64,000 nt of DNA from an uncultured Nitrososphaerales archaeon (GTDB lineage: Archaea > Thermoproteota > Nitrososphaeria > Nitrososphaerales > Nitrososphaeraceae). Within the stretch, counting starts at the first letter, position 1. Each line of letters opens with the position of its first letter. The stretch is taken from positions 537,343 to 601,342 of the forward strand of contig CAVOHZ010000008.1 in the NCBI GenBank assembly GCA_963695855.1, in the 5' to 3' direction. The position numbers were made by a program, and so were the translations under genes. Of the stretch, positions 1-63,921 are shown in pieces. A model generated the notes under the pieces. That model saw nothing but the letters and a program-made list of their open reading frames with translations. It ran no database searches and was not told the DNA's origin.

Positions 1-387
1 TTCTACGAGTTGAAAAGTTGGATCGTTCTTTTGCATTTCAACCTCCAAGTGATCTATCAAGGCATCAGCATAAGAAGAATAAGACTTGAATAATGGAAAA
101 CCATACTTGCCATTAATATCATCAAGCGGTATAACGTTAAACGATATTCGTACATTTTCAGAAACATTTAGGTGCGATATCAAGACTTCATTATAGAAAG
201 GAGGGTTTTTATTTTCCAACTTTTCAATTTTCCAGTCAGTTTCATTAGGAAATTCTAAGGTAAATAGACCATCAGGATCGTTATAATCAAGCCATTTGAT
301 ACTTTCAAGATCTATGAAATGAATTGGGACTAAAGGAGACAAAAAAAATAATGGGAAAAATAAAGATACTAATTGTATTTTTACCAT
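1..387 (-). CDS. Secreted PsbP-like protein (partial, runs off window)
   Basis: Not in ORF track. Translated by hand from ATG at 387: MVKIQLVSLFFPLFFLSPLVP...KWLDYNDPDGLFTLEFPNETDWKIE..., open to base 1; hydrophobic N-terminus plus PsbP-like W-x-x-Y...F-x-L-x-F-P...W pattern. Confidence 0.7.
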   Translation of the reverse strand, partial: MVKIQLVSLFFPLFFLSPLVPIHFIDLESIKWLDYNDPDGLFTLEFPNETDWKIEKLENKNPPFYNEVLISHLNVSENVRISFNVIPLDDINGKYGFPLFKSYSSYADALIDHLEVEMQKNDPTFQLVE

Positions 388-544
388 TTAAAATATTATT
401 ATTACTTCTCAATTTATCTGTATTTTTAAATATTATTGGTACTGATAGATATTGGTATTGAGGCTACACTGTAGGTCAAAGATAGAATATTCATAGCTAA
501 ATGTATTTATTTAAATTTATACACGCGAAGATTAATCTATTGAA

Positions 545-563
545 GTACATTCATCGAATGTAC
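545..563. promoter_or_regulatory. Palindromic operator candidate GTACATTC-ATC-GAATGTAC
   Basis: Perfect 8-3-8 palindrome; the ~35-bp context recurs as a reverse complement at about 30525-30559. Confidence 0.7.
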
Positions 564-634
564 CACAACGTTATTAACACTTATCCCTGTCTATTAATTG
601 AATACCTTTAACAAGGTTTCGAGTAGTTTCAATT

Positions 635-658
635 CAGGTGACCGGTTTTGGTCACCTG
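635..658. other. 9-bp perfect inverted repeat CAGGTGACC-N6-GGTCACCTG
   Basis: Seen directly; GC-rich hairpin in AT-rich DNA; function unknown. Confidence 0.4.
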
Positions 659-1330
659 TATCTTCATTTTGTTTGTTAAAACACACATATTGAGATAAAC
701 TTGAATTGGAATTTATCTGAAATCCTATTCTTATTTGTTGGTTATATACACTAATAAAAAATTTATCCAATTCTACAAATGACAGACCATGTTTCATGTT
801 CTTTTTCTTGGCAGGAAAATTATCATCAAAACTACATTTGGATCAGATTCTTTAAGATAGGTAATATATTGTGTCTTTTGGATTCAGAAGGTATACTATT
901 GGCGTAACAATACAAATTCGAGATTGTAAATAAATATCTTCAATATTTGAGGTCAAGTTCAGATAACATTCTCTCTTACAGGCATATTTCTTCTTAAATA
1001 TTTATTTATACCAAGAATGGATTTATGAGCGAGATCTACAGCAATCAATAACCATCAAAATGATCTCCAATCTGAACCTCACTTGCATGGTTAATTAACA
1101 GAATGGATGTAAGGTTCTCCCCAGTTTTTCTATTTGTGATCTATTTGGTTTCCTTTTTTGAGAATATCTATATAAAAAGTGTTTTTTCAGAAAAATCTTA
1201 ATTATATATAGAGTCAATACCGGAAAAAAAGGTTGATTAGTAAAAAACTTAACCCATTCAGTAGAAAATCACAATCATGGATAAAACTGTTTGGTTGACT
1301 CTAGATAGTAGATAGTAAATTCATGAAAAA

Positions 1331-1870
1331 TTAAAATTCTTCCATCATCTCAACATAATCTTCTACAATGTCCGAATTGAAACTGTAATTGTATTTTTGT
1401 AAAGTATCCAGTAAAAAAGATTTATCAATCGAGAGTTCATAAATATTGTAATCTTTTTGTCTTCGTATCCTTATCATATTAGATTCTTTTAGTCTCATCA
1501 AATGCCATGAGACGGTTGAGGGAACCTTATTAGTGTAATCTACTATTTCATTGAAGCTACACTGATCATGATCCGATATAAATAGCAGCACGCTTCTTGT
1601 ACTTTTCTGTCTCAATATTGCTAAAATTTTGGACTCCTCATCAGATATGTCAATAGAATAATATCTAGTTACTCTATTGTTAATTCTGTCAATTTTAACT
1701 TTGCCAGAATGATCCAATTTATTTAAATGATAAGTTAGAACACCGTTAGAAAGTCCAGTCAGTCTCATTAATTCCCTATATCTGACGCCTGGAAATTTAA
1801 TAATATAATGAAATATCTTATGTTGAACTGAATTTTTTTCTTTCTTTGTTAGAGTAGATTCTATAATCAT
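1331..1870 (-). CDS. Double winged-HTH transcriptional regulator (ArsR/MarR-like)
   Basis: PGVRYRELMRLTGLSNGVLTYHL and second HTH SFNEIVDYTNKVPSTVSWHL; start overlaps the stop of the upstream membrane gene. Confidence 0.9.
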   Translation of the reverse strand: MIIESTLTKKEKNSVQHKIFHYIIKFPGVRYRELMRLTGLSNGVLTYHLNKLDHSGKVKIDRINNRVTRYYSIDISDEESKILAILRQKSTRSVLLFISDHDQCSFNEIVDYTNKVPSTVSWHLMRLKESNMIRIRRQKDYNIYELSIDKSFLLDTLQKYNYSFNSDIVEDYVEMMEEF

Positions 1871-2277
1871 TTATTAGCACCTTTCATAAAACTTACCCCA
1901 AAAAAGATGACCATAATCAAGAGGATAACGTGAGAAAGCTCTATATTAACAGTCGGTATAAACATTCCATAAATATTTTCAGTGGAACTCAGTAGGTACA
2001 AATATTCAACTGCTACTAGAGTTACAAATCCCAGAGTCATAAATAAGATCTTGATACTTTTGGTTCTAGCATATGCGAGGATAGAAACTATAGCGAGAAA
2101 TTGTGATATTATCAATGATGCCAAGTGCATAGTGATGTGGTAGATCATATGTGTGTGGTAGAGGTGTGGTAAGATAGCTGGGACAGTTAAAATTGACAAT
2201 ACAACACTTGCGATCAATGCAAGTAGTTTAGGCTTATTATAAAATTTATCTGGATCATTAAAATTCCTTAGCAACAT
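1867..2277 (-). CDS. 4-TM membrane protein with His-rich segment, coupled to the wHTH gene
   Basis: Four hydrophobic helices; PHLYHTHMIYHITMH; 4-bp overlap with regulator. Confidence 0.8.
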   Translation of the reverse strand: MLLRNFNDPDKFYNKPKLLALIASVVLSILTVPAILPHLYHTHMIYHITMHLASLIISQFLAIVSILAYARTKSIKILFMTLGFVTLVAVEYLYLLSSTENIYGMFIPTVNIELSHVILLIMVIFFGVSFMKGANK

Positions 2278-2461
2278 TATAAATAATCATCAAGAATTTA
2301 AATATATTATGGTACAAACTTGAAAAGAGTAGATTGTATTTATCTATCTAATAAAATGTGTCAAGATCTTACTATAAGAAAAGGTAAAGGTAAATTTAAC
2401 GATATTAATCTTCGAATGTTTTAGTATAAAGTTTAAAAGCATTAATTGTCAAGAAGATTTA

Positions 2462-3037
2462 ATGGGAAAATATTTCACAAATAATATTTTAATATTTGTC
2501 ATGGTAGCATTTGCGATAGGACTTTTAAATACAGTACCTATCTTTGCACAAGGAGGCAATGGTACTATGACCAACACAACTACTACTACGGAAGAGCATG
2601 GTGAAGAGTACACTGAAGGAATTTCAGTCAGGGATACCGTTACTGTTTTGCTGCAGGACCTAACATTACCAGCTCAAGATTTTATCCATCTCTATGATAG
2701 TACGCCTGATACGATATTAAAAGGTCATGTTGCAGTTAAAATACCATGTGAAGACAACTCTGTTTCTCCAATTCAAGTCTTGATAGGATCTGCACCACAA
2801 TTTGCTCCAGCTGAATTAGAAAATATAGCAAATCTATCTAAACCGGGAGATTTATGTTTATATCATGTTGATTTGATGCCCGGTGGAAATGTTTCTAAGA
2901 TAACAGATATTGCCTTGAAGAATCCAACTGACGAGGACATAGAATTTCCACCTACATCAACAGTCGTAATCGGCGTTAATGAAATAGCCAAGGGAGAACA
3001 TGAATCTGATGAAGCTACAGAAGCAGGACATACCTAG
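2462..3037 (+). CDS. Secreted His/Cys-motif protein (RDxVT-HLYD-GHVA-PC-CxYH family, copy 1)
   Basis: Signal peptide; clear paralogues at 24149-24688 and 12787-13504. Confidence 0.85.
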   Translation: MGKYFTNNILIFVMVAFAIGLLNTVPIFAQGGNGTMTNTTTTTEEHGEEYTEGISVRDTVTVLLQDLTLPAQDFIHLYDSTPDTILKGHVAVKIPCEDNSVSPIQVLIGSAPQFAPAELENIANLSKPGDLCLYHVDLMPGGNVSKITDIALKNPTDEDIEFPPTSTVVIGVNEIAKGEHESDEATEAGHT

Positions 3038-3303
3038 CCTATAAAAGACACATAACACAATAAAAATCTAAGTTGAAGACATCTATTTTCTTTTTTTGAA
3101 TTTGAAAAAGTGAACTAATATCAATATAACCAATAAATACCAAAGATGGAATAGACCTAAGAATTTGTAACAATAAAACAATTCATTTCCAGAGATTGGA
3201 TTGATTTGATTTTTGCATCGCCAATATTAGAACTATAATAAGGAGAAAGTTGTTTGAGACAACTGATACCTTGGAAGATCATATAGATGATTATGTTAAC
3301 TTA

Positions 3304-4694: not shown

Positions 4695-5222
4695 ATGGAA
4701 ATCGGATTTATGAAATTAAGTTTTACAATCATAACAATTTTTACTATGGCCATTTTACTAAATACTGTTATTCCATCATCATTGTCAGATGCTCAGAATT
4801 TTACTAATATAGATAACAAATTAACTATGAAAGAGATAGAATGTCAGAGCAAAGAACATTTTGACTTTCACATACATACAAAACTTACTATAATGATTGA
4901 TAATCAACTTTATCCTATACCTGCTAATATAGGAATTATTCCAGAAAAATGTATTTATTGGATACATACACATGATAATAGCGGGTTAATACATATAGAA
5001 TCTCCTATCGAAAGAAACTTTACTTTGGGACAATTCTTACAGATATGGAAGTTATTTGATAAATCAGATATTGTTCATGATATTGCTGATAATAAAATTA
5101 ATGGAATTATTAGGATATATTTTAACTATAATCATAGTAATACTTCAGTTGTAAATGATTATAGAAATTTAGTTTTAAAAGATCAGGATAAAATTTTAAT
5201 GAATATAACTACTACTTACTAA
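4695..5222 (+). CDS. Secreted His-rich putative metal-binding protein
   Basis: Signal peptide; HFDFHIH and CIYWIHTHDNSGLIHIESP...FTLGQF motifs. Confidence 0.8.
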   Translation: MEIGFMKLSFTIITIFTMAILLNTVIPSSLSDAQNFTNIDNKLTMKEIECQSKEHFDFHIHTKLTIMIDNQLYPIPANIGIIPEKCIYWIHTHDNSGLIHIESPIERNFTLGQFLQIWKLFDKSDIVHDIADNKINGIIRIYFNYNHSNTSVVNDYRNLVLKDQDKILMNITTTY

Positions 5223-5568
5223 TTTAGGAAAGATCATCAATATTTTTGAAATTTAAATATGTTAAAAGCTTATTCTTTATAATGGTTAAATTGGTGTGAA
5301 AAAGAAATTAAGTTTAACAACATTTTTGTATTCTTCTCAGTATGATGTGAAACAAATTTGATCTAGAGAGAGGATTTAGCAACTCATGCAAGTAAATTTA
5401 TTTGAATATCTCTAAATTTTTTATGGAAATACTATTTTTAGAAAAAATTTACTTCTGTTTTAAAAAATTTCTTAGATGTTATTGATATAAGTTTTTAGTA
5501 TTGATTGTATTGCAGTATCTTTTTTTCCTTCTTATGATCTACAAAAAATTGATAAAAAGTTATTTTAA

Positions 5569-9384: not shown

Positions 9385-10104
9385 CTGTTAAGCAGTAAAA
9401 GTTATAGCTAGGCATGTTCTCTTTATGATATGAAAGTTAGATTTGAAAGAAACATAACATCCACAGTATAGTTATGTATTCTCTTTATCTATACTTTCTT
9501 GGTCTAAGTTTTAAGACATACTTCCAAGACATCAGTATTATTTAAAGATGAGAATAAGAGAAGTTATGTGTCTGTATGGAACTGGATTCAGAGATTTGGA
9601 TCCTGTCAGATCTATAAACGTAAAAGAATATCAGCCTTCATAATAGATGAAACAGTTATTCAGATTGGTAGTCAACATTTCTGGTTATGGTTCTGTATAG
9701 AACCAATTCCTCGTTCAGTACTTGGAATATACATATCTGAGGAAAGAAATATGCTTGTTGCTGAAAAATTTATTCATTCACTAGTCGAGAAATATGGAAA
9801 ACATGCCGTGTATACAGATAATGGTGTTACATGGTATGATGAAGCATGTAATGTAATTGGATTGAAACATTATGTACATTCTTCAATAGAGAAAAGTCTA
9901 ATGGAACGGGTCAACTAGTATTTGAAAGACAGAATCGAGAGTTTTGATGATTATTATCGATGTATGCAGAAGAAAAATTGCAATCTATTTCATGTGTATA
10001 ACTGGATACAATTCTTTGTATCTATGTATAATGATACAATAGCAAATAATAATAATGATTTTGAGTTAGAGGAGGTGAGAATATTATCTTAAATTAACAC
10101 AACC
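9385..10104 (+). mobile_element. IS6-family element, degenerate
   Basis: VWNWIQRF..IIDET..YTD..LMER; homologous to 63197-63921; right IR TCTTAAATTAACACAACC; stops and frameshifts; left boundary approximate. Confidence 0.88.
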
Positions 10105-13513: not shown

Positions 13514-14272
13514 GTTTCAAACCTATTTTAGTCAATTTCTAAGCGAGACGACGAGAAGAATGCATTTACTTACACAGGTTTCAAACCTATTTTAGTCAAT
13601 TTCTAAGTGTTTCTGAAAGCCTTTCAGAGAATCATCGCGGACTAGGGTTTCAAACCTATTTTAGTCAATTTCTAAGCACAGTACTGCTGCTTATCATATA
13701 GATGTATATAGTTTCAAACCTATTTTAGTCAATTTCTAAGCTTGCTGGATCTGGCTTGTATGTTCGATTGAATCCAGTTTCAAACCTATTTTAGTCAATT
13801 TCTAAGCACAGACCATTTCAACTAGCAAATAACTATCGCCTGTTTCAAACCTATTTTAGTCAATTTCTAAGCAAATAAATCTAAGGCGTTATATGAATTA
13901 GGAATCCTGGTTTCAAACCTATTTTAGTCAATTTCTAAGATATCACAGCTATTTGACATAGGTTACGATAGCTGAGTTTCAAACCTATTTTAGTCAATTT
14001 CTAAGTATTATTGGCAACGACTTATATTTGCGATCGTAAGTTTCAAACCTATTTTAGTCAATTTCTAAGTTATCATTCAGTGTAATCGTTCAAGAATCGT
14101 CTATTAGTTTCAAACCTATTTTAGTCAATTTCTAAGGATAATGCAAACGTTGAAAACGCCTGCAGAATCATAGAGTTTCAAACCTATTTTAGTCAATTTC
14201 TAAGTGGAAGTAAGCAAATGGGTAATTCCAGCTATGTCTATGAGTTTCAAACCTATTTTAGTCAATTTCTAA
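13514..14272 (-). CRISPR. CRISPR array 1: 12 repeats (30 bp), 11 unique spacers of 34-39 bp
   Basis: GTTTCAAACCTATTTTAGTCAATTTCTAAG starts at 13514, 13578, 13647, 13711, 13777, 13842, 13910, 13976, 14040, 14107, 14175 and 14244 (last truncated by IS630). Minus-strand sense inferred from the TTGAAAC 3' end. Confidence 0.98.
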
Positions 14273-15390
14273 TAATAAGTCAAGTGTCATCATGAATGTC
14301 GTTACACCATCTTCCAAATCTCTTATCCAGATATTCTGATATTGCATCTTTTTGTTCTTCTATACTGGTATAGAATCTATTTGCACACACATCTGATTTT
14401 ATCTTCTGATTTACTTTTCTCTCATTTGGATTAAGGTATGGCGCCCTCTTTGGAAGGTGTATTATACTGAGCCAGTCTTTTTTCTGTGCATTGATATATT
14501 TTTTTGTCATCTTGCTTAGGTGAAATGAAGCGTTATCCCATACCAGTACAATTCTTTTCCAACCATTATTTTTCATTACATGTATCCTGAGATTCTCTAA
14601 ATGGTTTATAGCATTGGTGGAATTTGATCTGTCATAGAAATCATACAACAGATTCTGTTCAGGCCATAGCATGGATATGTACATTGAGAATTTCTTTCTA
14701 CTACCGTTATGCCTAATTTTTTGTTGTTCACCTTCAAAACTCATTGACTTTCTTATACATGGCTTCTGTGTTACTATAGTTTCATCTTCAAAGACCAACA
14801 TCACTTTCTTTTTTTGAGAGCGGATGCTACTTGTTTGTAGTTCTTTACCTGTTTCTTTCCCTCTTCATAATCAGTCCCATGTTCAAGTTCAAGTCTGGTT
14901 CTCTCACATCTGATACCCATGTCCTTCAGTATCCTTTGAAGGTGTTTGAAACTGATTGGAATGTCAAGTTCTTCTGTAAGACACTTTGCCAGTGACCTCA
15001 GACTCCAGGTGTTTCTGATGAAACCAAAAATATTGGGATCGTTAAAAAGTACAGAAAGTATAGTCTCTCTATCCTCATCTGTTATACGGAATTTTGTACC
15101 ACCTGGTTTCCTTATCTCCAATCCTTTTGTTCCTATCTGGAGATATGCCGATATCCATCTTTGAACTGACCTGATACTGACACCATGTTCCTTCCTTTGC
15201 TATATCTGCAAAAGTTCTACCGTTGCTCTTCTGAAGTATTGCCATTAATCTGCGATAATGCTTCTTGTCGGTACTATATTTCATCAACGACTTTAGACTG
15301 TTCTTCTGTCCTGTGGTGAGGTTGAGTTTGGTAGTAGAACCATGGTACATAGAATTATGATATTCAGGATACCTTAGACTTTACCTATTC
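14272..15390 (-). mobile_element. IS630-family element inserted at a TA in the CRISPR repeat
   Basis: DDE motifs FEDET / WDNASFH / PYLNPNE; slippery A-run at the ORF junction near 14805-14816; extra frameshift near 15190; only imperfect IRs. Confidence 0.9.
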
Positions 15391-44321: not shown

Positions 44322-45854
44322 TTGGATAAAATAATTATATTGGATTTTGGTTCACAATACAGCCATCTTATTTGTAGGCGAATTAGAGAAGCAAATGTTT
44401 TTTGTGAAATATATCCATATAATATATCATCGGATCAAATAAAAAAGATATCGCCAAAAGGAATAATTTTTTCAGGTGGTCCTGCTAGTGTATATGATCC
44501 TAATTCTCCAAAACCAGATAACAAAGTATTTGATCTGGGTATACCAATTTTGGGGATATGTTATGGACATCAATTGATTGTGGATAATTTCAGAGGCAGA
44601 GTAAAAAGGTCTGAAACGCGAGAATATGGAAAATCAACATTGCAAATAGATGATAAATCCGATCTGTTTAAAAATTTTGATGATAAAATTCAATGTTGGA
44701 TGAGTCATGGTGATGTAGCAGAGCAAATTCCATCTGACTTTAAAGTCTTGGCACACACCGATAATTCTTTCTCTGCAGCAATTGGAAATCACGAAAAGAG
44801 ATTCTATGGATTACAATTTCATCCTGAAGTAAATCATACCGAACATGGTTTAGATATCTTGAAAAATTTCTCAGTTGATATTAGTAAGGCTGAAGCCAAT
44901 TGGACGATTCAAAATTTTATTGATATGACTATTGCAGAAATAAAGAGACAAGTTGGTAACGAAAAAGTTCTGTGTGCAGTCAGTGGAGGAATAGACTCTA
45001 CGACTGTAGCAGTCCTTCTAAATCAAGCAATACCTGACAATTTACAATGTATTTTTGTTGATCACGGTCTATTGAGATTGGGGGAGGAAAAATTGGTGAT
45101 GGATCTATTAAATAAACTTGATCTTAATATTAAATTTGTAGATGCATCTGAGAGATTTCTGGAAAAATTAAAGGGTGTAACAGATCCTGAAGAAAAAAGA
45201 AGAATAATAGGGTACGAATTTGTTAATGTCTTTCTTGATGAGGTAAAGAAAGAGACCGAATCCTTTCAATGGTTGGCACAGGGAACGCTTTATCCTGATG
45301 TAATAGAAAGTGGGATTTCTTTAGGTCCGGCCTCTGTCATAAAAACGCATCATAATGTCGGCGGTCTGCCTGATATGCTTCATCTCAAAGTTCTTGAACC
45401 TCTGAGATATCTCTACAAAGATGAGGTAAAGAGGGTAGCCAAAATGCTAAATGTTCCGGAAGAGCTCCTTAACAGACATCCTTTTCCAGGACCTGGACTT
45501 GCAGTTAGGATCATTGGAGAGGTAACTGCAGATAAGATTAGAATTTCAAAACATGCTAGTGATATTGTCGAACGGGAATTAAAAAATGCTAGGATTTATG
45601 ATTCAGTCTGGCAAGCATATGCAGCAGTTGGTGACGATAGGGCAGTAGGTGTAGTAGGGGACGAAAGGCTTTATGGACACATTGTTATTATTCGTGTTGT
45701 GAATTCGGTTGATGCTATGACTGCAGATTGGACAAAATTATCATACGACCTGCTTGAAAAAATGAGTAACAGGATTACAAATGAAGTTGAAGGTGTTTCT
45801 TGGGTCACGTATACAATATCCAGCAAACCACCAGCAACCATAGAACCACAATAG
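44322..45854 (+). CDS. guaA: GMP synthase (glutamine-hydrolysing)
   Basis: LDFGSQY, GICYGHQ, QFHPEV, SGGIDS, QGTLYPDVIES, RHPFPGPGL, KPPATIE. Confidence 0.98.
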   Translation: MDKIIILDFGSQYSHLICRRIREANVFCEIYPYNISSDQIKKISPKGIIFSGGPASVYDPNSPKPDNKVFDLGIPILGICYGHQLIVDNFRGRVKRSETREYGKSTLQIDDKSDLFKNFDDKIQCWMSHGDVAEQIPSDFKVLAHTDNSFSAAIGNHEKRFYGLQFHPEVNHTEHGLDILKNFSVDISKAEANWTIQNFIDMTIAEIKRQVGNEKVLCAVSGGIDSTTVAVLLNQAIPDNLQCIFVDHGLLRLGEEKLVMDLLNKLDLNIKFVDASERFLEKLKGVTDPEEKRRIIGYEFVNVFLDEVKKETESFQWLAQGTLYPDVIESGISLGPASVIKTHHNVGGLPDMLHLKVLEPLRYLYKDEVKRVAKMLNVPEELLNRHPFPGPGLAVRIIGEVTADKIRISKHASDIVERELKNARIYDSVWQAYAAVGDDRAVGVVGDERLYGHIVIIRVVNSVDAMTADWTKLSYDLLEKMSNRITNEVEGVSWVTYTISSKPPATIEPQ

Positions 45855-46031
45855 GTTGTAGCAATGATCGAAATAACAATATTAATAATTTTGGTTAAGA
45901 ATATGTCCTAATATTGAATATGTATCAAGTTTTTTGAAAATATAAATTGTATTGTATGTTGTTATCTTTGTCTTAAAATAGAGTTTTATTATCCATTATA
46001 AGTGTAATTTTTTGTGCATCCAAAAGGCAAA

Positions 46032-46218
46032 GTCAAAAAAACAAAATCCATCATAACAAGAATTGAAACGTTAAATCTACCAAAATATCTTGTAAGTTTG
46101 AAAAGTCAACAAAAAACAAAATCCATCATAACAAGGATTGAAACAACCCTTTGAATGGATCCTCAGTCTTGAATAACTCTTGTCAACAAACAAAATTCAT
46201 CATAACAAGAATTGAAAC
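46032..46218 (+). CRISPR. CRISPR array 2, block A: 3 repeats of 37-40 bp
   Basis: GTCAA(C)AAACAAAATCCATCATAACAAG(A/G)ATTGAAAC at 46032-46069, 46105-46144 and 46182-46218; spacers of 35 and 37 bp, then a 37-bp spacer leading into block B. Confidence 0.88.
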
Positions 46219-46255
46219 TTGATACCGGCACGGTAATAGAGGCGATGTCGTCGAC

Positions 46256-46836
46256 CTTAGAAAGTGACTAAAATAGGTTTGAAACTGTAATTTCGTGCCA
46301 CAATTGACGCAAAAAGATGTGCTTAGAAATTGACTAAAATAGGTTTGAAACTAGAGACGTCCCCGCGAAACGAGAACATCGGGATTCTTAGCTTAGAAAT
46401 TGACTAAAATAGGTTTGAAACAAGCTTTGTTCTAGTTGTTGCATTATTGTTTTTGCTACCTTAGAAATTGACTAAATTAGGTTTGAAACGTTTTCTCGTT
46501 TCTTGTTTATCGTTAAAGGGTGCAATAACATAGAAATTGACTAAATTAGGTTTGAAACGTTTTCTCGTTTCTTGTTTATCGTTAAAGGGTGCAATAACAT
46601 AGAAATTGACTAAAATAGGTTTGAAACATTGCTGGAACAAATCAGACCGGAACAATTACTACGACGGCTTAGAAATTGACTAAAATAGGTTTGAAACGTT
46701 TTCTCGTTTCTTGTTTATCGTTAAAGGGTGCAATAACTTAGAAATTGACTAAAATAGGTTTGAAACATTGCTGGAACAAATCAGACCGGAACAATTACTA
46801 CGACGGCTTAGAAATTGACTAAAATAGGTTTGAAAC
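46256..46836 (+). CRISPR. CRISPR array 2, block B: 9 repeats of 30 bp, 8 spacers (5 distinct)
   Basis: CTTAGAAATTGACTAAAATAGGTTTGAAAC at 46256, 46322, 46392, 46460, 46529, 46598, 46668, 46737 and 46807; reverse complement of the array 1 repeat. Confidence 0.97.
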
Positions 46837-46937
46837 AAGAAGTGAAAAAAGGTAATTTACCCTTTTAGACGTATGAAAAAACATCGGTTTTTTTAAAAAT
46901 GTTCCTGTTTTAAATCAAAGTAATCATCAAACCTTAA

Positions 46938-46970
46938 GTCAAAAAAAATCTCTCATAATAACCATTGAAC
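46938..46970 (+). CRISPR. Degenerate A-type repeat (possible trailer)
   Basis: GTCAAAAAAAATCTCTCATAATAACCATTGAAC aligns end to end with the block A repeat. Confidence 0.5.
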
Positions 46971-47439
46971 ATATATAAACAGAATTATTAGTACTGCCAA
47001 AGATGTCAAATAAAAAAAAGTTTGTTCTTGCCGAGTGAATATTTATTTTACATTTTCCTACTTTAAATAATTTTACTTATCTTTATTTTGAGTATAGAAA
47101 TTAATATTGTTTTTCATTATCTTAAAACCTTTAATTTATCATCAATCAGAATATCAATTTCCTTAAAGAATTTCGTCAACAGTCAACATATAGTTCAGTC
47201 ATTTGTAATGAATAGCATCCATTTCATTTTTTTATATGATGAATATTTTTTTGGAATACAATTTGACTTGTAAAGAAGGTACAAATATAATCAAATTATA
47301 TCGCTTTATAGCTGATATTGTATCCGATATTGGAAATTATCTAACCAATGGTAATATTTCGGCGTAATCAAATACTATGAAATTTCTTAAAGAAAATGTA
47401 GATATAGTCTAATTACATATATCTACTAAATACTGATAC

Positions 47440-48222
47440 CTATACTTCTTGAATTGTAGGTCTTATGAGGATCTCATTTACGTTTACATATGATGGAGAT
47501 TCTAATGCAAATAGAATAGCGTTAGCTATGTCTTCAGCTTTGAGAGATTCCATCTTTTTTGATTTTTCAACAAATCCTTCTAATGACTTATCGGTGATTG
47601 TGTTTGTCAATTCAGTTGAAACTACCCCTGGCTCTATTGATGTTACCCTTATGTTATATCTAGGACTAAACTCTTGTCTCAATCCTTCGCTAAATGCAGC
47701 GACAGCATGCTTTGTTGCACAATAAACACTTGCTGATGGAAAAACTATTCTTCCTGCCACAGAAGAAATATTCACTATATGGCCGGATTTTTTATTTATC
47801 ATTTCTTGAATTACTGCAGCAGTACAATATAAGACACCCCTGATGTTAACATCAATCATTTGATCCCACTCACTAACTTTTAGATTTTTAAAGAAACTAA
47901 GCGGCATAATACCAGCGTTGTTGATTAGGATATCTACTGTTTTCCAAGATTTTATAACTGCATCAACAAATGAATCGCACTGTTCTTTTTTTGTAACATC
48001 TAACTTGTGAATCAAAACCTCTCCACCATTTGACGTAATCTGTTTTTTTAATGATTCTAGTCTATCAATTCTTCTAGCTCCCAATGCTACTTTCGCACCG
48101 GCTTTAGATAATGCCAAGGCAGTTGCATAACCTATTCCACTACTAGCTCCTGTAATTAAGGCTATCTTGTCTTTTAACATTATTAATGTATCAGAATAGC
48201 AAACGCGTTTAAATTTTGTCAT
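47440..48222 (-). CDS. SDR family oxidoreductase
   Basis: TGASSGIG, NNAG, YCATK; probable start at 48180. Confidence 0.95.
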   Translation of the reverse strand: MTKFKRVCYSDTLIMLKDKIALITGASSGIGYATALALSKAGAKVALGARRIDRLESLKKQITSNGGEVLIHKLDVTKKEQCDSFVDAVIKSWKTVDILINNAGIMPLSFFKNLKVSEWDQMIDVNIRGVLYCTAAVIQEMINKKSGHIVNISSVAGRIVFPSASVYCATKHAVAAFSEGLRQEFSPRYNIRVTSIEPGVVSTELTNTITDKSLEGFVEKSKKMESLKAEDIANAILFALESPSYVNVNEILIRPTIQEV

Positions 48223-48297
48223 TTTTTAATAAAAAATAAAATTTTCTCTAGTTGCAACAGAACAAATAATTTTTTTGATTTATAATAAATATACTAA

Positions 48298-48805: not shown

Positions 48806-48935
48806 TTTTATAATAAAGCTGAGAAACCTAAATCTGTATCATAAATATCTGTTTCCCTTCATGAAAATTGTGTTAATTTCCAGTTATTCAATTTAAAAAA
48901 TTAGATTTATAAATTATATTAAAACTTTCGATATT

Positions 48936-50087
48936 ATGAACTGCAGAAAAAATTATGTTACTATCATATTTGTAATTTTCTCAATTTCTATATCATTTTC
49001 CATACTATTTCATTGGAGTTTTCTACCAATCTACAGCTTACAGGATAATGAAAATCAGGGAATCTTAACTATAACGTTATCTTCTATTAACGGCTCCCTT
49101 CTATCAAACGGAACATTTCTGATTGCTCCAGATCCTATTCTGAAAAATCAACCGTTTCTGATAGCAGATAACGATCTTAGAGATGTAGATAAATCTCAAG
49201 GTACTATTTCAATAACAAATCTTCCAAATGGTAATTATACTGTCACTCAGGGCGGAACTGCAAGTGGTTTTCTCCCCAATACTATTCCCAAAATAGTGAC
49301 AATCGATAATAAAACCAGCCAAATTTCTACCACATCATTTGTAAATATAGTTCAAGAAACAGATGAAAAATATCAATATGAAAATTACAGTTCCGGCTAT
49401 ACATACAATGCTAAATTTGTATGTGGGTCAATTAGAGGCGATGAAGGTCCACTAAGACCAGGTCACTATGACACTGATATTAGTATTTATAATAAACAGA
49501 AATATCCTATCAACATTTCCTGGAACGTTGTATTCAATAACGGTGATTCTACCAATTCTCTTTTAAAGAAATTAGGACCTGAAAGTTCTCTAGCCTTTGT
49601 TTGCAAAGATATCAAAGAATTGAGCAATTCTAACTCATATGATACTGATTTCCTAGAGGGTTTCGTGATAATTGGGGTAGAGGGTATCAGTGATACTTTC
49701 GACCCTTTGGGAAAGGTTATTTCAAGGTCTGATTTCCAAAAAGACGACAAGACAGAACCAGTTTCCATCCAAGTATTTTACACCGCTAATGCTCTAGACT
49801 CTCTTCCTCACGAGATATTAATTGATCAAATCGTTTTTCAGGTTTTAGAAGATCCATCTGGTAAAATACCTGAATCTCTTTTAAAAACCGACCTAGCAAT
49901 TTCTACAAGATCAGAATTAAATACAATATCTGATGAAAGTTTAAAAATCAAATCTCTTGTGGCATCTAAATATAACCTAACTGAATCGGATCTTGCTGAA
50001 TTATCTATATCTATAAAGGATACAGATATTGGCGTCGCCAGCATGCTCGATGATCATGCCATATCCCTATTTAGACTAGTTCCTTGA
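48936..50087 (+). CDS. Secreted or membrane-anchored protein with prealbumin-like domain
   Basis: N-terminal TM; GNYTVTQ; YNAKFVCG..PGHYDTDISIYN. Confidence 0.75.
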   Translation: MNCRKNYVTIIFVIFSISISFSILFHWSFLPIYSLQDNENQGILTITLSSINGSLLSNGTFLIAPDPILKNQPFLIADNDLRDVDKSQGTISITNLPNGNYTVTQGGTASGFLPNTIPKIVTIDNKTSQISTTSFVNIVQETDEKYQYENYSSGYTYNAKFVCGSIRGDEGPLRPGHYDTDISIYNKQKYPINISWNVVFNNGDSTNSLLKKLGPESSLAFVCKDIKELSNSNSYDTDFLEGFVIIGVEGISDTFDPLGKVISRSDFQKDDKTEPVSIQVFYTANALDSLPHEILIDQIVFQVLEDPSGKIPESLLKTDLAISTRSELNTISDESLKIKSLVASKYNLTESDLAELSISIKDTDIGVASMLDDHAISLFRLVP

Positions 50088-50324
50088 TCATCAAAAAAAA
50101 AAATAAAACAAAATAAAATAAAACAAGAAAAGAATTAATCAATCGTACTGACACAAGTATTCTTTATAACTTAGATCTCTGATTGTCCTGCTGACAATGA
50201 TATACAACAGTTTATCATGTAACAACACTGTAAGTATTTTTTTTCCTATGAAGTTTTGATGACTAAAAACTAAAGAAAAACTATTTTATTCATTTAAAAT
50301 ACTATCTTTATTTTATTTTCCAAT

Positions 50325-63196: not shown

Positions 63197-63921
63197 GGAC
63201 CTGTTAATTTAAGAGAACAGATTTAGCTGTGAATTTCCTATTCTTAACTTGTATGTTACTAAGATTTTTCAGAAACAGAACATCCACTATTGTAGTTATG
63301 TACTCTTTGTATATGTATTTTCTTGGTTTGAGTTTACGGAATACTTCTAAAGCATTAGATATATTTGATGATGAGAAACGAAGTTATGTTTCTGTATGGA
63401 ATTGGATTCAAAGGTTTGGTTCTTCTCAAATCTACAAAAGGAAAAGAATTTCAGCATTCATCATAGATGAAACTGTTATTCAGATTGGAAACCATAATTA
63501 TTGGTTATGGATACCGATTGAACCAATTCACAAATCTGTACTTGGTATTCACATTTCAGAAGAAAGAAACATGTTTGTAGCAGAAAATTTCCTTAGCTCC
63601 TTGGTTGACAAATATGGCATACATACAATTTACACTGATGGTGGTACATGGTATCCTCAAGCGTGTCGGTTCTTACATCTAAAACATAGATTGCATTCTT
63701 CTTTAGAGAAGAGTTTGATAGAAAGAGTAATGCAGTATTTTAAGGATAGAACTGAATGTTTTGATGATTATTATCCATGTATTACTAAGAGGAAGAATAA
63801 TTGTGATCTAGAACATGTATACAATTGGATAAAGTTATTCACCTATTTGTATAATACAATAACTAGAAATAAAATTCTATTTATCAAAGGAGAGGTGAAA
63901 TAGTCTTAACTTAACAGCACC
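63197..63921 (+). mobile_element. IS6-family element with apparently intact transposase (63229-63903)
   Basis: IRs GGACCTGTTAATTTAAGA / TCTTAACTTAACAGCACC; IIDET, YTDGG, IERV..FKDRT. Confidence 0.93.

What the first reader, a model, noticed from the sequence alone, without database searches (positions are those of the whole stretch)
46032..46970. Chimeric CRISPR array: a 30-bp repeat family follows, and may be nested inside, a different 37-40-bp family
Seen: three long A repeats, a normal 37-bp spacer, then nine 30-bp B repeats in the same orientation with no gap or internal leader. About 100 bp later comes a degenerate A-like repeat. A and B share little beyond the 3' TTGAAAC. Established: an array normally carries one repeat matched to its Cas6 and Cas1. 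From memory, B resembles Pyrococcus/Methanothermobacter-type 30-mers and A resembles Methanosarcina-type 37-mers. Inference: either a B block recombined into an A array through the shared 3' handle, or one transcript feeds two Cas systems. The junction spacer 46219-46255 would need cleavage of both repeat types to mature.
Basis: partly seen in the sequence, partly recalled or inferred. Interest (0 to 1): 0.85.

Follow-up and report, generated by a model that had tools for sequence, protein, structure and literature searches.

The report
Orphan CRISPR array of two repeat types
A soil ammonia-oxidising-type archaeon carries a real CRISPR array in which a block of one repeat type sits inside an array of another, but the genome has no cas genes, so it is most likely a recombined relic rather than a working two-system array.

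Summary
Three 37-40-nt A repeats (46032-46218), a 37-nt junction spacer, nine 30-nt B repeats (46256-46836), a 101-nt tail and one degenerate A repeat (46938-46970) lie on one strand after guaA. The A-to-B junction is not a misassembly: a contig of a public run spans it. A metagenome relative about 88% identical keeps B block, tail, three A repeats and the same SDR gene.

In sister genera, A-like and B-like repeats each sit beside their own type I cas operon. This genome, 99.87% complete, gave no Cas1, Cas2, Cas6 or RAMP match and no hit to relatives' cas operons. Congeners hold only a cas6 pseudogene and one cas5-cas3 scrap.

Best reading: an orphan composite built by recombination between arrays, probably through the shared TTGAAAC. 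It now changes only by repeat-mediated duplication and deletion. The reading of one transcript feeding two systems has no support here.

The scan noted similar chimeric arrays on other DNA (e1-5517306, e1-5425416).

Moderate interest; a new member of a known kind.

The parts
44322..45854 (+). guaA (fused GMP synthase), upstream neighbour
   Evidence: Pfam GATase + GMP_synt_C; 94% identical DNA in closest relative G014
45855..46031 (+). AT-rich stretch between guaA and the first A repeat; position of a leader, not shown to be one
   Evidence: No similarity to leaders of cas-linked A-like arrays of relatives on inspection of the printed flanks. No other match in the genome. No significant match to the upstream part of L059 (score 28, shuffles up to 38).
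46032..46218 (+). Upstream A block: three A repeats (46032-46069, 46105-46144, 46182-46218) and two spacers (35 and 37 nt)
   Evidence: Rfam CRISPR-DR7 on the + strand: A2 43.7 and A3 39.6 bits (gathering 37), A1 30.1 bits.
46219..46255 (+). Junction spacer, 37 nt, GC 0.54, between A3 and B1
   Evidence: Spanned by contig record 3 of run X1 (46116-346350 read as 46116-46350) and, with 13 nt of B1, by record 15 of run X3.
46256..46836 (+). B block: nine 30-nt B repeats and eight spacer slots holding five distinct spacers
   Evidence: Duplicated 139-nt unit 46531-46669 / 46670-46808 at 99% identity.
46837..46937 (+). 101-nt tail between the last B repeat and the degenerate A repeat; contains a T7 run followed by an A/T-rich box
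   Evidence: Homologous to the 108-nt tail in L059 (local score 77, shuffles mean 17, max 27). Not similar to tails of the other B arrays. No unusual fold (z -0.15).
46938..46970 (+). Degenerate A repeat, remnant of a downstream A array
   Evidence: 68% to A1. Homology to L059 runs from its third A repeat onward (L059 2296-3648 = window 46940-48297, 87.7%).
47440..48222 (-). Short-chain dehydrogenase gene, downstream neighbour
   Evidence: Pfam adh_short 6.6e-63. The same gene follows the array in L059/L053. It is absent from this locus in G014.
13514..14273 (-). Second, pure B array of 12 repeats in the same window, abutted by an IS630-like element (14280-15121)
   Evidence: Pfam DDE_3 and HTH_32.

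Best explanation
The locus is an orphan, composite CRISPR array. It is a remnant of two type I systems that this lineage has lost.

The A family (37-40 nt) and the B family (30 nt) are both true CRISPR repeats, read on the + strand with the usual ...TTGAAAC 3' end. In other genera of the family each sits next to its own cas operon.

Here a piece of a B array, with about 100 nt of trailing DNA, lies inside an A array. The left join is seamless. It is most simply explained by illegitimate recombination in the 7 nt (TTGAAAC) that the two repeat families share, so the junction spacer would originally have been a B-array spacer. The right breakpoint lies somewhere in the tail.

Since then the array has changed only by recombination between repeats. 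Units were duplicated in tandem in the B block. The downstream A array collapsed from three repeats to one. One strain has one A unit fewer.

Without Cas6, Cascade and Cas1-Cas2 the array cannot be matured, used or extended in this cell.

Shown: the anatomy, the reality of the junction, homology of both repeat families to cas-linked arrays, and the failure to find cas genes. Inferred: the recombination path, the microhomology site and the lack of function.
For: (1) Anatomy and non-chance repeats.

(2) Both families occur elsewhere in the genome as ordinary arrays.
- A: 4 repeats at C8:198147-198403.
- B: 12 repeats at C8:550856-551615 and 13 repeats at C10:1185517-1186376.

(3) Cas-linked homologues in relative G112.
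- A 30-nt repeat, 20/30 identical to B, follows cas4-cas1b-cas2 of a type I-B operon (Cas8b1, Cas7/Cst2, Cas5t, Cas3, two Cas6).
- A 37-nt repeat, 30/37 identical to A, follows the cas1-cas4 end of a second type I operon (Csh2-like Cas7, Cas5h, Cas3).
- G058 has a repeat 32/37 identical to A beside Cas1.
- Gene order there gives the read direction.

(4) A metagenome contig, L052, has cas4-cas1-cas2, about 108 nt, then the variant B' (27/30 to B). L052 has GC 0.28 against 0.311 for the genome.

(5) No cas genes in G000 (99.87% complete, 11 contigs).
- 0 matches for PF01867, PF01881, PF03787, PF09827 and PF10040.
- 0 matches for TIGR01877.
- Best cas3_core score 79.4 bits against a cut-off of 102.45.
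- Of 218 ORFs from 8 cas loci of relatives, 69 hit G000. None of these lies in a cas operon.

(6) Decay in the genus.
- Cas1 over cut-off in 0 of 25 genomes; RAMPs in 0 of 25.
- cas6 in 1 of 25, and that copy has two in-frame stops.
- cas3_core over cut-off in 1 of 25, on a 3.3-kb contig with a cas5 fragment.
- G019 has an array of 5 degenerate B repeats.

(7) The junction is real.
- X1 record 3 covers 46116-46350 with 1 difference, although that strain differs at 9 of 363 upstream positions.
- X3 record 15 joins A repeats to the junction spacer and 13 nt of B1.
- X6 records cover B7-B9 and B9 plus 94 nt of tail.

(8) Shared architecture. L059 and L053 carry 5 B repeats, a homologous tail, 3 A repeats and the SDR gene at 87.7% identity, with an A repeat also upstream of the B block.

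(9) Recombination signatures.
- Duplicated spacers and a 139-nt tandem unit.
- The 75-nt unit missing in X3 has 25 nt that fit either side.
- The junction spacer has GC 0.54, like B spacer 2 at 0.53 and unlike the A spacers at 0.23 and 0.38.

(10) Precedent. Garrett et al. 2015 (PMC4390879, passages of sections 4.4-4.5) report that repeat-spacer regions duplicate and recombine between loci. They also report an 899-bp foreign fragment between two repeats of a leaderless locus.
Against: - The repeats are very well kept for relics: 12 of 12 B repeats identical from position 2 at 13514-14273, and 6 of 9 perfect in the B block. This argues for recent activity, recent arrival or homogenisation.
- The unit absent in X3 is the leader-proximal one. 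That is where a newly acquired spacer would sit.
- A cognate adaptation module exists somewhere in nature next to B' (L052).
- Cas islands are often lost from assemblies and bins. Most of the 24 congeners are fragmented, at 20 to 580 contigs.
- Absence rests on Pfam/NCBIfam models and on relatives' proteins. An unknown effector would be missed.
- Two ORFs of unknown function that flank a solo Cas1 in G136 do have homologues in G000.
- The crossover at TTGAAAC is inferred, not shown.
- The tail does not resemble the flanks of the other B arrays, so no donor array was identified.
- No IS copy lies within 16 kb of this array.
Confidence: 0.65

Rival explanations
1. The locus is an equally cas-less relic, but it is not nested. 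It is three arrays in tandem (A, B, A). The 101-nt tail is the leader of the downstream A array. Only the A3/B1 join is a fusion, for example a deletion between the TTGAAAC of an A repeat and that of a B repeat which removed what lay between, possibly cas genes and the B leader.
For: - The tail abuts the 5' end of an A repeat exactly, both here and in L059.
- It is conserved between the two.
- It holds a T run followed by an A/T-rich box about 50 nt before the repeat.
- In L059 the three downstream A repeats are no more degenerate (33-34 of 37) than A3 here (34 of 37).
Against: - The tail shows no similarity to the conserved leader motifs of the cas-linked A-like arrays of G112, G136 and G058, nor to the stretch upstream of A1.
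- In relative G112 the A-type and B-type loci lie about 0.7 Mb apart, so adjacency is not the family's ground plan.
- Having A repeats on both sides of B needs more events than one insertion.
Confidence: 0.2
2. The array works. Its cas genes lie on a strain-variable island, plasmid or virus that is missing from this assembly. One leader drives a single precursor that two Cas6 enzymes, or one tolerant enzyme, cut in both repeat types.
For: - Repeats are near-perfect.
- L052 shows a low-GC cas4-cas1-cas2 next to B'.
- Run X1 holds a contig whose loose end before a B repeat resembles the L052 leader.
- There is a leader-end unit difference between strains.
- The would-be 8-nt 5' handles differ by one base, ATTGAAAC against TTTGAAAC (read).
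Against: - No cas family match in a 99.87%-complete, 11-contig genome.
- No hit with L052's own Cas4, Cas1 and Cas2 other than one spurious 64-aa match inside a housekeeping ORF.
- No Cas1 over cut-off in 25 of 25 genomes of the genus.
- The closest L052-like Cas1 among 238 family genomes and 401 sampled order genomes is 47% and 51% identical.
- No A or B core in IMG/VR viral contigs.
- The B block grew by duplication, not by new spacers.
- One congener's cas6 is a pseudogene.
Confidence: 0.1
3. The B fragment, 719 nt from 46219 to 46937, was captured as one oversized 'spacer' by the A system's Cas1-Cas2 integrase while that system was still present. Later A spacers were then added in front of it.
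For: - Both ends of the insert coincide with A-repeat borders, here and on the right side in L059.
- The A repeats in front of it are better kept here than the one behind it.
- Large foreign fragments between two repeats are on record: 899 bp in S. solfataricus locus F (PMC4390879) and a 666-nt 'spacer' noted by this scan (e1-3357444; not checked).
Against: - Cas1-Cas2 measures prespacer length. This is established knowledge that I recall, not something tested here.
- The left border is equally explained by the shared TTGAAAC.
- The right border is explained if the last about 37 nt of the tail are a residual A spacer.
- No duplication signature can be read.
- In L059 the A repeat upstream of B is separated from it by 1.4 kb.
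Confidence: 0.05
4. Assembly artefact: two arrays were joined wrongly through the shared repeat end.
For: Repeats are classic places for misjoins. The source reads could not be examined.
Against: - Independent contigs of other runs cross the join (X1 record 3; X3 record 15, partly).
- They come from strains that differ from the window elsewhere.
- A related contig has the same B-tail-A order.
Confidence: 0.01

Closest known systems
Type I-B CRISPR arrays of other Nitrososphaeraceae genera (loci L025/L030 for the 30-nt family; L026/L027/L032 for the 37-nt family)
   Same: - Same repeat lengths, 30 and 37 nt.
- Same ...TTGAAA(C/G) 3' end.
- 20-23 of 30 and 29-32 of 37 identical positions.
- Spacers of 32-40 nt.
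- Same reading direction relative to cas1-cas2 or cas4.
   Different: - There, each array has one repeat family, a conserved leader and an adjacent cas operon.
- Here, two families share one array, no recognisable leader is present and the genome has no cas genes.
Orphan (isolated) CRISPR arrays, i.e. arrays in genomes without cas genes
   Same: - Arrays without any cas locus in the genome.
- A survey preprint counts 966 of 11,592 arrays (8.3%) as orphan (10.1101/2022.05.19.492656, passages).
- Another study sets such arrays aside as 'no cas type' (PMC12814883, passages).
   Different: Those reports concern arrays of one repeat family. The composite make-up is extra. 'CRISPR arrays away from cas genes' (Shmakov et al. 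2020) is recalled only. I saw it named in search listings and did not read it.
Recombination, duplication and foreign inserts in Sulfolobales CRISPR loci (Garrett et al. 2015, PMC4390879, sections 4.4-4.5 read as passages)
   Same: - Repeat-spacer regions duplicate within loci and recombine between loci.
- Changes occur by recombination between direct repeats.
- Leaderless locus F is frozen and carries an 899-bp foreign fragment between two repeats.
   Different: - There the exchanges are between loci of the same or sister repeats, in cells that have cas genes.
- Here the partners share only 16 of 30 positions and a 7-nt end, and the cell has no cas genes.
Rfam CRISPR-DR7 (RF01320)
   Same: A2 and A3 score above the family's gathering score on the + strand, at 43.7 and 39.6 bits against 37.
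   Different: A1 is below the score at 30.1 bits. The B repeats match no Rfam family at E up to 1.
Chimeric arrays noted earlier by this scan on other DNA (e1-5517306, an Asgard genome; e1-5425416, a hot-spring archaeon)
   Same: Two repeat types in one co-oriented array, read there as recombination between arrays or as a foreign array behind a native one.
   Different: - Different organisms and repeat families.
- Those genomes were described as having active systems or a 'growing' native array.
- I did not check those notes.

Membership tests
CRISPR array | Three or more near-identical direct repeats of about 23-47 nt, separated by unique spacers of similar length | tested here: met
   - A: 3 repeats of 37-40 nt with 35-37-nt spacers.
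- B: 9 repeats of 30 nt with 36-40-nt spacers, of which 5 are distinct.
- 0 matches in 100 shuffles.
CRISPR array | Repeat belongs to a family found next to cas genes | tested here: met
   - A-like repeats lie beside cas1-cas4 operons in G112, G136 and G058.
- B-like repeats lie beside type I-B operons in G112 and G043.
- B' lies beside cas4-cas1-cas2 in L052.
- A matches Rfam CRISPR-DR7.
CRISPR-Cas system (functional locus) | cas genes in the genome: adaptation genes cas1 and cas2, and processing or effector genes cas6, cas7, cas5, cas8, cas3 or cas10 | tested here: not met
   - 0 matches for Cas1, Cas2, Cas6 (PF01881, PF10040, TIGR01877) and RAMPs.
- cas3_core is below cut-off.
- No tblastn hit to the cas operons of relatives.
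CRISPR-Cas system (functional locus) | Leader with promoter and integration signals in front of the first repeat | tested here: inconclusive
   - 177 AT-rich nt precede A1.
- They show no similarity to the conserved leaders of cas-linked A-like arrays, which belong to other genera.
- The consensus promoter scan on offer is bacterial and was not used.
CRISPR-Cas system (functional locus) | Transcription and processing into crRNAs | not testable with these tools
   No listed run is on record as RNA.
CRISPR-Cas system (functional locus) | Spacers match mobile elements | tested here: inconclusive
   - 37 spacers of the four arrays were tested against the genome and 63 fetched loci.
- No convincing protospacer was found.
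- There is one gapped 34-of-36 match of a spacer of the other B array at C3:303179-303213.
- Public viral collections were not searched with spacers.
Orphan CRISPR array | Array present with no cas locus anywhere in a near-complete genome | tested here: met
   Completeness 99.87%, 11 contigs, with the searches as above. Caveat: accessory islands can be missing from an assembly.
Single-family array (the normal state) | All repeats of one array belong to one family | tested here: not met
   A and B agree at only 16 of 30 right-aligned positions and alternate A-B-A on one strand.

The most novel reading that the evidence does not exclude
The composite array is a working dual-specificity precursor. 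One leader after guaA drives a single pre-crRNA. A mobile, strain-variable type I-B island of the L052 kind, missing from this assembly, matures and uses it.

The two repeat families give almost the same 8-nt 5' handle, AUUGAAAC and UUUGAAAC. One Cascade could therefore load guides from both blocks. That includes a hybrid junction guide with an A-type 5' handle and a B-type 3' handle.

The array would then be a chromosomal memory that outlives, and can be re-armed by, incoming cas modules.
Probability: 0.07. Interest if true: 0.75.

Novelty: new member of a known kind. Interest (0 to 1): 0.35.

Why it matters
- It is a clean natural case of two CRISPR repeat families that share only a 7-nt end being joined in register. 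The join is stable enough to be shared by strains and by a relative about 88% identical.
- It documents CRISPR-Cas decay in a soil lineage of Nitrososphaeraceae. Arrays survive while cas genes are gone or broken.
- This matters for anyone using spacers from such genomes to link viruses to hosts, and for array-typing software that assumes one repeat per array.
- If the minority reading were true, with arrays re-armed in trans by a mobile cas island, it would bear on how immune memory persists through cas loss.
- As it stands, the finding explains an oddity rather than revealing a new mechanism.

Tried and rejected
- RNA evidence: no RNA holder listed among 22 runs. All four runs laid were contigs, and parts without cover say nothing.
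- Viral carriage: the B core and the A core have 0 exact matches in IMG/VR.
- Leader comparison: printed flanks showed no shared motif between the stretch before A1, the tail, the flank of the other A array and the leaders of cas-linked arrays. Window 45857-46031 against L059 1-288 is not above shuffles.
- Donor search: the tail is not similar to the tails of the other B arrays (270 of 500, 222 of 500 and 177 of 500 shuffles reach the score). No spacer is shared between arrays, and no flank is repeated in the genome.
- IS-mediated origin of this particular array: the nearest IS240-like copy is 16 kb away. ISs do abut two other arrays.
- Cas1 relics: a 64-aa match of L052 Cas1 at C3:205364-205552 lies in a frame that I read, from memory of the family, as porphobilinogen deaminase. 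I rejected it. A sub-threshold Cas1 hit in G012 (18.9 bits) found no support from relatives' Cas proteins.
- Anti-cas spacers: none of 37 spacers hit the fetched cas loci.
- SDR-linked arrays elsewhere: 0 of 12 flanks of SDR homologues in other genomes hold A or B repeats.
- A-to-B junction pattern in 238 family genomes: only G000. Two other matches, with 2 mismatches each, are an A repeat followed by a gene start.
- Literature: searches found no paper on a natural array of two unrelated repeat families. One search was spoilt by a badly chosen term. The library lacks most subscription journals, so this is not proof of absence. Supplements were not opened.
Full report
WHAT IS THERE

Downstream of guaA (44322-45854), after 177 AT-rich bases, the + strand carries these elements in order:
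- three A repeats: 46032-46069 (38 nt), 46105-46144 (40 nt) and 46182-46218 (37 nt), with spacers of 35 and 37 nt;
- a 37-nt junction spacer, 46219-46255;
- nine 30-nt B repeats from 46256 to 46836;
- a 101-nt tail;
- a degenerate A repeat at 46938-46970.

An SDR gene follows on the minus strand (47440-48222).

The B 30-mer, with up to three mismatches, occurs 21 times in the window. Nine matches are here and twelve are in a second, pure B array at 13514-14273. None occurred in 100 shuffles. The A core occurs three times against none in shuffles.

A and B agree at 16 of 30 right-aligned positions and share the last seven bases.

The eight spacer slots of the B block hold only five different spacers. 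One occurs three times and one twice. A 139-nt unit is tandemly repeated at 99% identity.

BOTH FAMILIES ARE REAL CRISPR REPEATS

The genome is 3.55 Mb in 11 contigs, GC 0.31. It has further ordinary arrays:
- A with four repeats at C8:198147-198403;
- B with 12 repeats in this window;
- B with 13 repeats at C10:1185517-1186376.

A2 and A3 pass the gathering score of Rfam CRISPR-DR7 on the + strand. B matches no Rfam family. Both repeats are essentially unstructured.

The gene content is archaeal (AcnX, MptE). An exact search for the B core in 185,579 species genomes found it only in seven assemblies titled Nitrososphaerales or Nitrososphaeraceae archaeon.

In a complete genome of another genus of the family (G112), each repeat family has its own cas locus:
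- A 30-nt repeat, 20/30 identical to B, follows cas4-cas1b-cas2 of a type I-B operon with Cas8b1, Cas7/Cst2, Cas5t, Cas3 and two Cas6.
- A 37-nt repeat, 30/37 identical to A, follows the cas1-cas4 end of a second type I operon with a Csh2-like Cas7, Cas5h and Cas3.

The gene order there fixes the read direction. The window's composite array would be read from the guaA side.

A 2.3-kb metagenome contig (L052, GC 0.28) carries cas4-cas1-cas2, about 108 nt, then the variant B' (27/30 to B).

NO CAS GENES HERE

Searches of the genome, rated 99.87% complete, gave these results:
- no match to Cas1, Cas2, Cas6 (two Pfam models and TIGR01877) or RAMPs;
- best cas3_core score 79.4 bits against a cut-off of 102.45, from a helicase found in every congener.

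Of 218 ORFs taken from eight cas loci of relatives, 69 hit the genome. All were flanking genes or false ORFs that run through arrays. The exception is two ORFs without Pfam family that lie next to a solo Cas1 in G136. None lay in a cas operon.

L052's own Cas4, Cas1 and Cas2 gave one weak hit, which lies inside a housekeeping ORF.

In the genus (25 genomes, this one included):
- Cas1 passes its cut-off in 0 and RAMPs in 0;
- cas6 passes in 1, with two in-frame stops;
- cas3_core passes in 1, on a 3.3-kb contig next to a cas5 fragment;
- one congener has an array of five degenerate B repeats.

In the wider family, Cas1 passes in 12 of 121 sampled genomes.

The picture is a lineage that had both systems and is losing them. 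The caveat is that most congeners are fragmented bins, where cas islands are easily missed.

THE JUNCTION IS REAL AND OLDER THAN THIS STRAIN

No run holds more than 27% of the stretch's words, and none is on record as RNA. Four runs were laid as contigs.
- In X1, a 235-nt contig covers 46116-46350 with one difference. That span is the end of A2, spacer 2, A3, the junction spacer, B1, a spacer and B2. The same run's contig over the guaA end differs at 9 of 363 positions, so it is another strain.
- In X3 (same study as X1), a contig joins 45912-46035 to 46111-46268. That strain has two A repeats instead of three, then the junction spacer and the first 13 nt of B1. 25 nt fit either side of the skip, as expected for repeat-mediated loss or gain of one unit.
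- In X6 (another study), contigs cover B7-B9 and B9 plus 94 nt of tail.

Two metagenome contigs, L059 and L053, are the same locus seen in two samples. They carry:
- an A repeat;
- 1.4 kb of other DNA;
- five B repeats;
- a tail homologous to ours (score 77, shuffles at most 27);
- three A repeats;
- then 87.7% identity to window 46940-48297 and 88% identity to 48896-50301.

The homology starts in their third A repeat. Our single degenerate A repeat is therefore what is left of a short downstream A array.

The closest genome (G014, guaA 94% identical) is collinear up to the guaA stop and again from window 48896. Between these points it holds 2.5 kb of different DNA with degenerate solo B-like repeats, the first about 110 nt after guaA.

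Arrays have therefore sat at this locus since before these lineages split, and have been remodelled differently in each. Among 238 genomes of the family, the A-spacer-B pattern occurs only in this genome.

HOW IT WAS MADE (INFERENCE)

New repeats are copied from the first repeat of the same array, so normal adaptation cannot create an A/B boundary. Recombination can.

The left join is in perfect register: a 37-nt spacer between intact repeats. That is what a crossover in the shared TTGAAAC would give. The junction spacer would then be a former B-array spacer. Its GC (0.54) fits the first B spacers better than the A spacers (0.23 and 0.38), which is weak support.

The right breakpoint can lie anywhere in the tail. 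Its last about 37 nt may be a residual A spacer.

Later changes are all of the repeat-recombination kind: tandem duplication in the B block, collapse of the downstream A repeats, and the one-unit difference in X3.

Such behaviour is described for Sulfolobales loci. Repeat-spacer regions duplicate and recombine between loci, and an 899-bp foreign fragment sits between two repeats of the frozen, leaderless locus F (PMC4390879, passages). Duplications were seen in 23 of 87 array families in a survey preprint (10.1101/2022.05.19.492656, passages).

I could not decide between two variants:
- a nested insertion;
- three tandem arrays in which the tail is the leader of the downstream A array.

The tail abuts an A repeat exactly and has a T run and an A/T box. 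However, it resembles no known A leader. Capture of the whole B fragment as an oversized spacer by an integrase is a bolder alternative that the borders allow but nothing requires.

I identified no donor array. The tail and spacers are unique in the genome, and no IS lies within 16 kb. IS elements do cut two other arrays:
- an IS630-like element at the leader side of the array at 13514-14273;
- an IS240-type copy 62 nt from the A array on C8.

WHAT IT DOES

Most likely nothing now. Without Cas6 no guide can be cut out, and without Cas1-Cas2 nothing can be added.

The product would carry an A-type 5' handle and a B-type 3' end.

The two 8-nt handles differ by one base, so in a cell that had either type I-B-like Cascade both sets of guides might be usable. 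That is speculation.

Points that keep a functional reading alive at about one in ten:
- the near-perfect repeats;
- the leader-end position of the unit that differs between strains;
- L052, together with a contig in run X1 whose sequence before a B repeat resembles the L052 leader.

Against it, the closest L052-like Cas1 in 238 family genomes and 401 sampled order genomes is only 47% and 51% identical. Its close relatives (65-93%) are all unnamed metagenome proteins.

VERDICT

- The reading of two systems fed by one transcript is not supported.

This is an orphan composite array, a new member of a known kind (orphan arrays remodelled by recombination) with an unusually clean cross-family join. 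The scan has reported similar chimeric arrays on other DNA (not checked by me).

Interest 0.35.

Noticed in passing
G000 C8:260125-261530; C3:255292-256690; C10:1665955-1667504; C10:1359164-1359456 (outside the window): A segment of about 1.4 kb is repeated at 94-95% identity. It carries the 3' part of a tRNA-like sequence, a mini-array of the variant B' repeat (full and truncated copies with the same 'spacers' at each locus), a conserved tail and an IS240-type transposase gene. B' is the variant that sits next to cas4-cas1-cas2 in L052.
   Followed up: partly
L033, L034, L041, L043 (one MAG); L040, L050, L055, L056; L047, L057, L064: Solo or terminal B-type repeats are followed by the same tail of about 70 nt at several loci of one genome, and in contigs of different samples. 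There are three different tail families. B-type repeats may travel as part of repeated elements.
   Followed up: no
window 13514-14273 and 14280-15350: A pure B array of 12 repeats, 11 identical and the leader-side one differing at its first base. It abuts a frame-broken IS630-like element (DDE_3, HTH_32), so it has no leader.
   Followed up: partly
window 9568-9918 and about 63201-63917; about 60 loci genome-wide: An IS240/IS6-type transposase family with about 60 loci, 25 of them near full length. One copy lies 62 nt beyond the last repeat of the A array at C8:198147-198403.
   Followed up: partly
G000 C3:303179-303213: Spacer 6 of the array at 13514-14273 matches an intergenic site of the same genome at 34 of 36 positions with two gaps. 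The site lies between an enoyl-CoA-hydratase-like ORF and a ParA-like ORF, near an IS110-like fragment (gene names from my reading of the translations). It may be an old self-match or chance.
   Followed up: partly
L092 (G019:C70) 4805-5524; L093 (G022:C389) 354-3189: One congener has a cas6 with two in-frame TAA stops. Another has a cas5 fragment plus a cas3 only 22-25% identical to the Cas3 of the A-type loci. These are the only cas traces found in the genus.
   Followed up: partly
L052 (metagenome contig, 2274 nt): Its Cas1b has relatives of 65-93% identity only among unnamed metagenome proteins. The next named ones, at about 55-57%, are labelled archaeon, Aenigmatarchaeota or Diapherotrites. 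That is closer than the family's own Cas1b at 47%. The host of this module is unknown.
   Followed up: partly
L028 7385-9655 (G136) and G000 C3:195469-197714: Two adjacent ORFs without Pfam family (211 and 542 aa) sit next to a solo Cas1 in G136. They have 38-39% identical homologues in this cas-less genome and in a congener (L041).
   Followed up: no
L013 261-290 and 1381-1405 (G014, after guaA): The closest relative has degenerate solo B-like repeats at the same locus, together with small ORFs homologous to other parts of G000. This is a differently decayed version of the same site.
   Followed up: partly
G000 C10:1185517-1186376: In the 13-repeat B array, the six leader-side repeats share an A-to-G change that the seven distal ones lack. 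This is the pattern expected from past polarised growth. One spacer is duplicated, and a B-repeat end plus 16 nt of the tail of the window's other B array lies just upstream.
   Followed up: no
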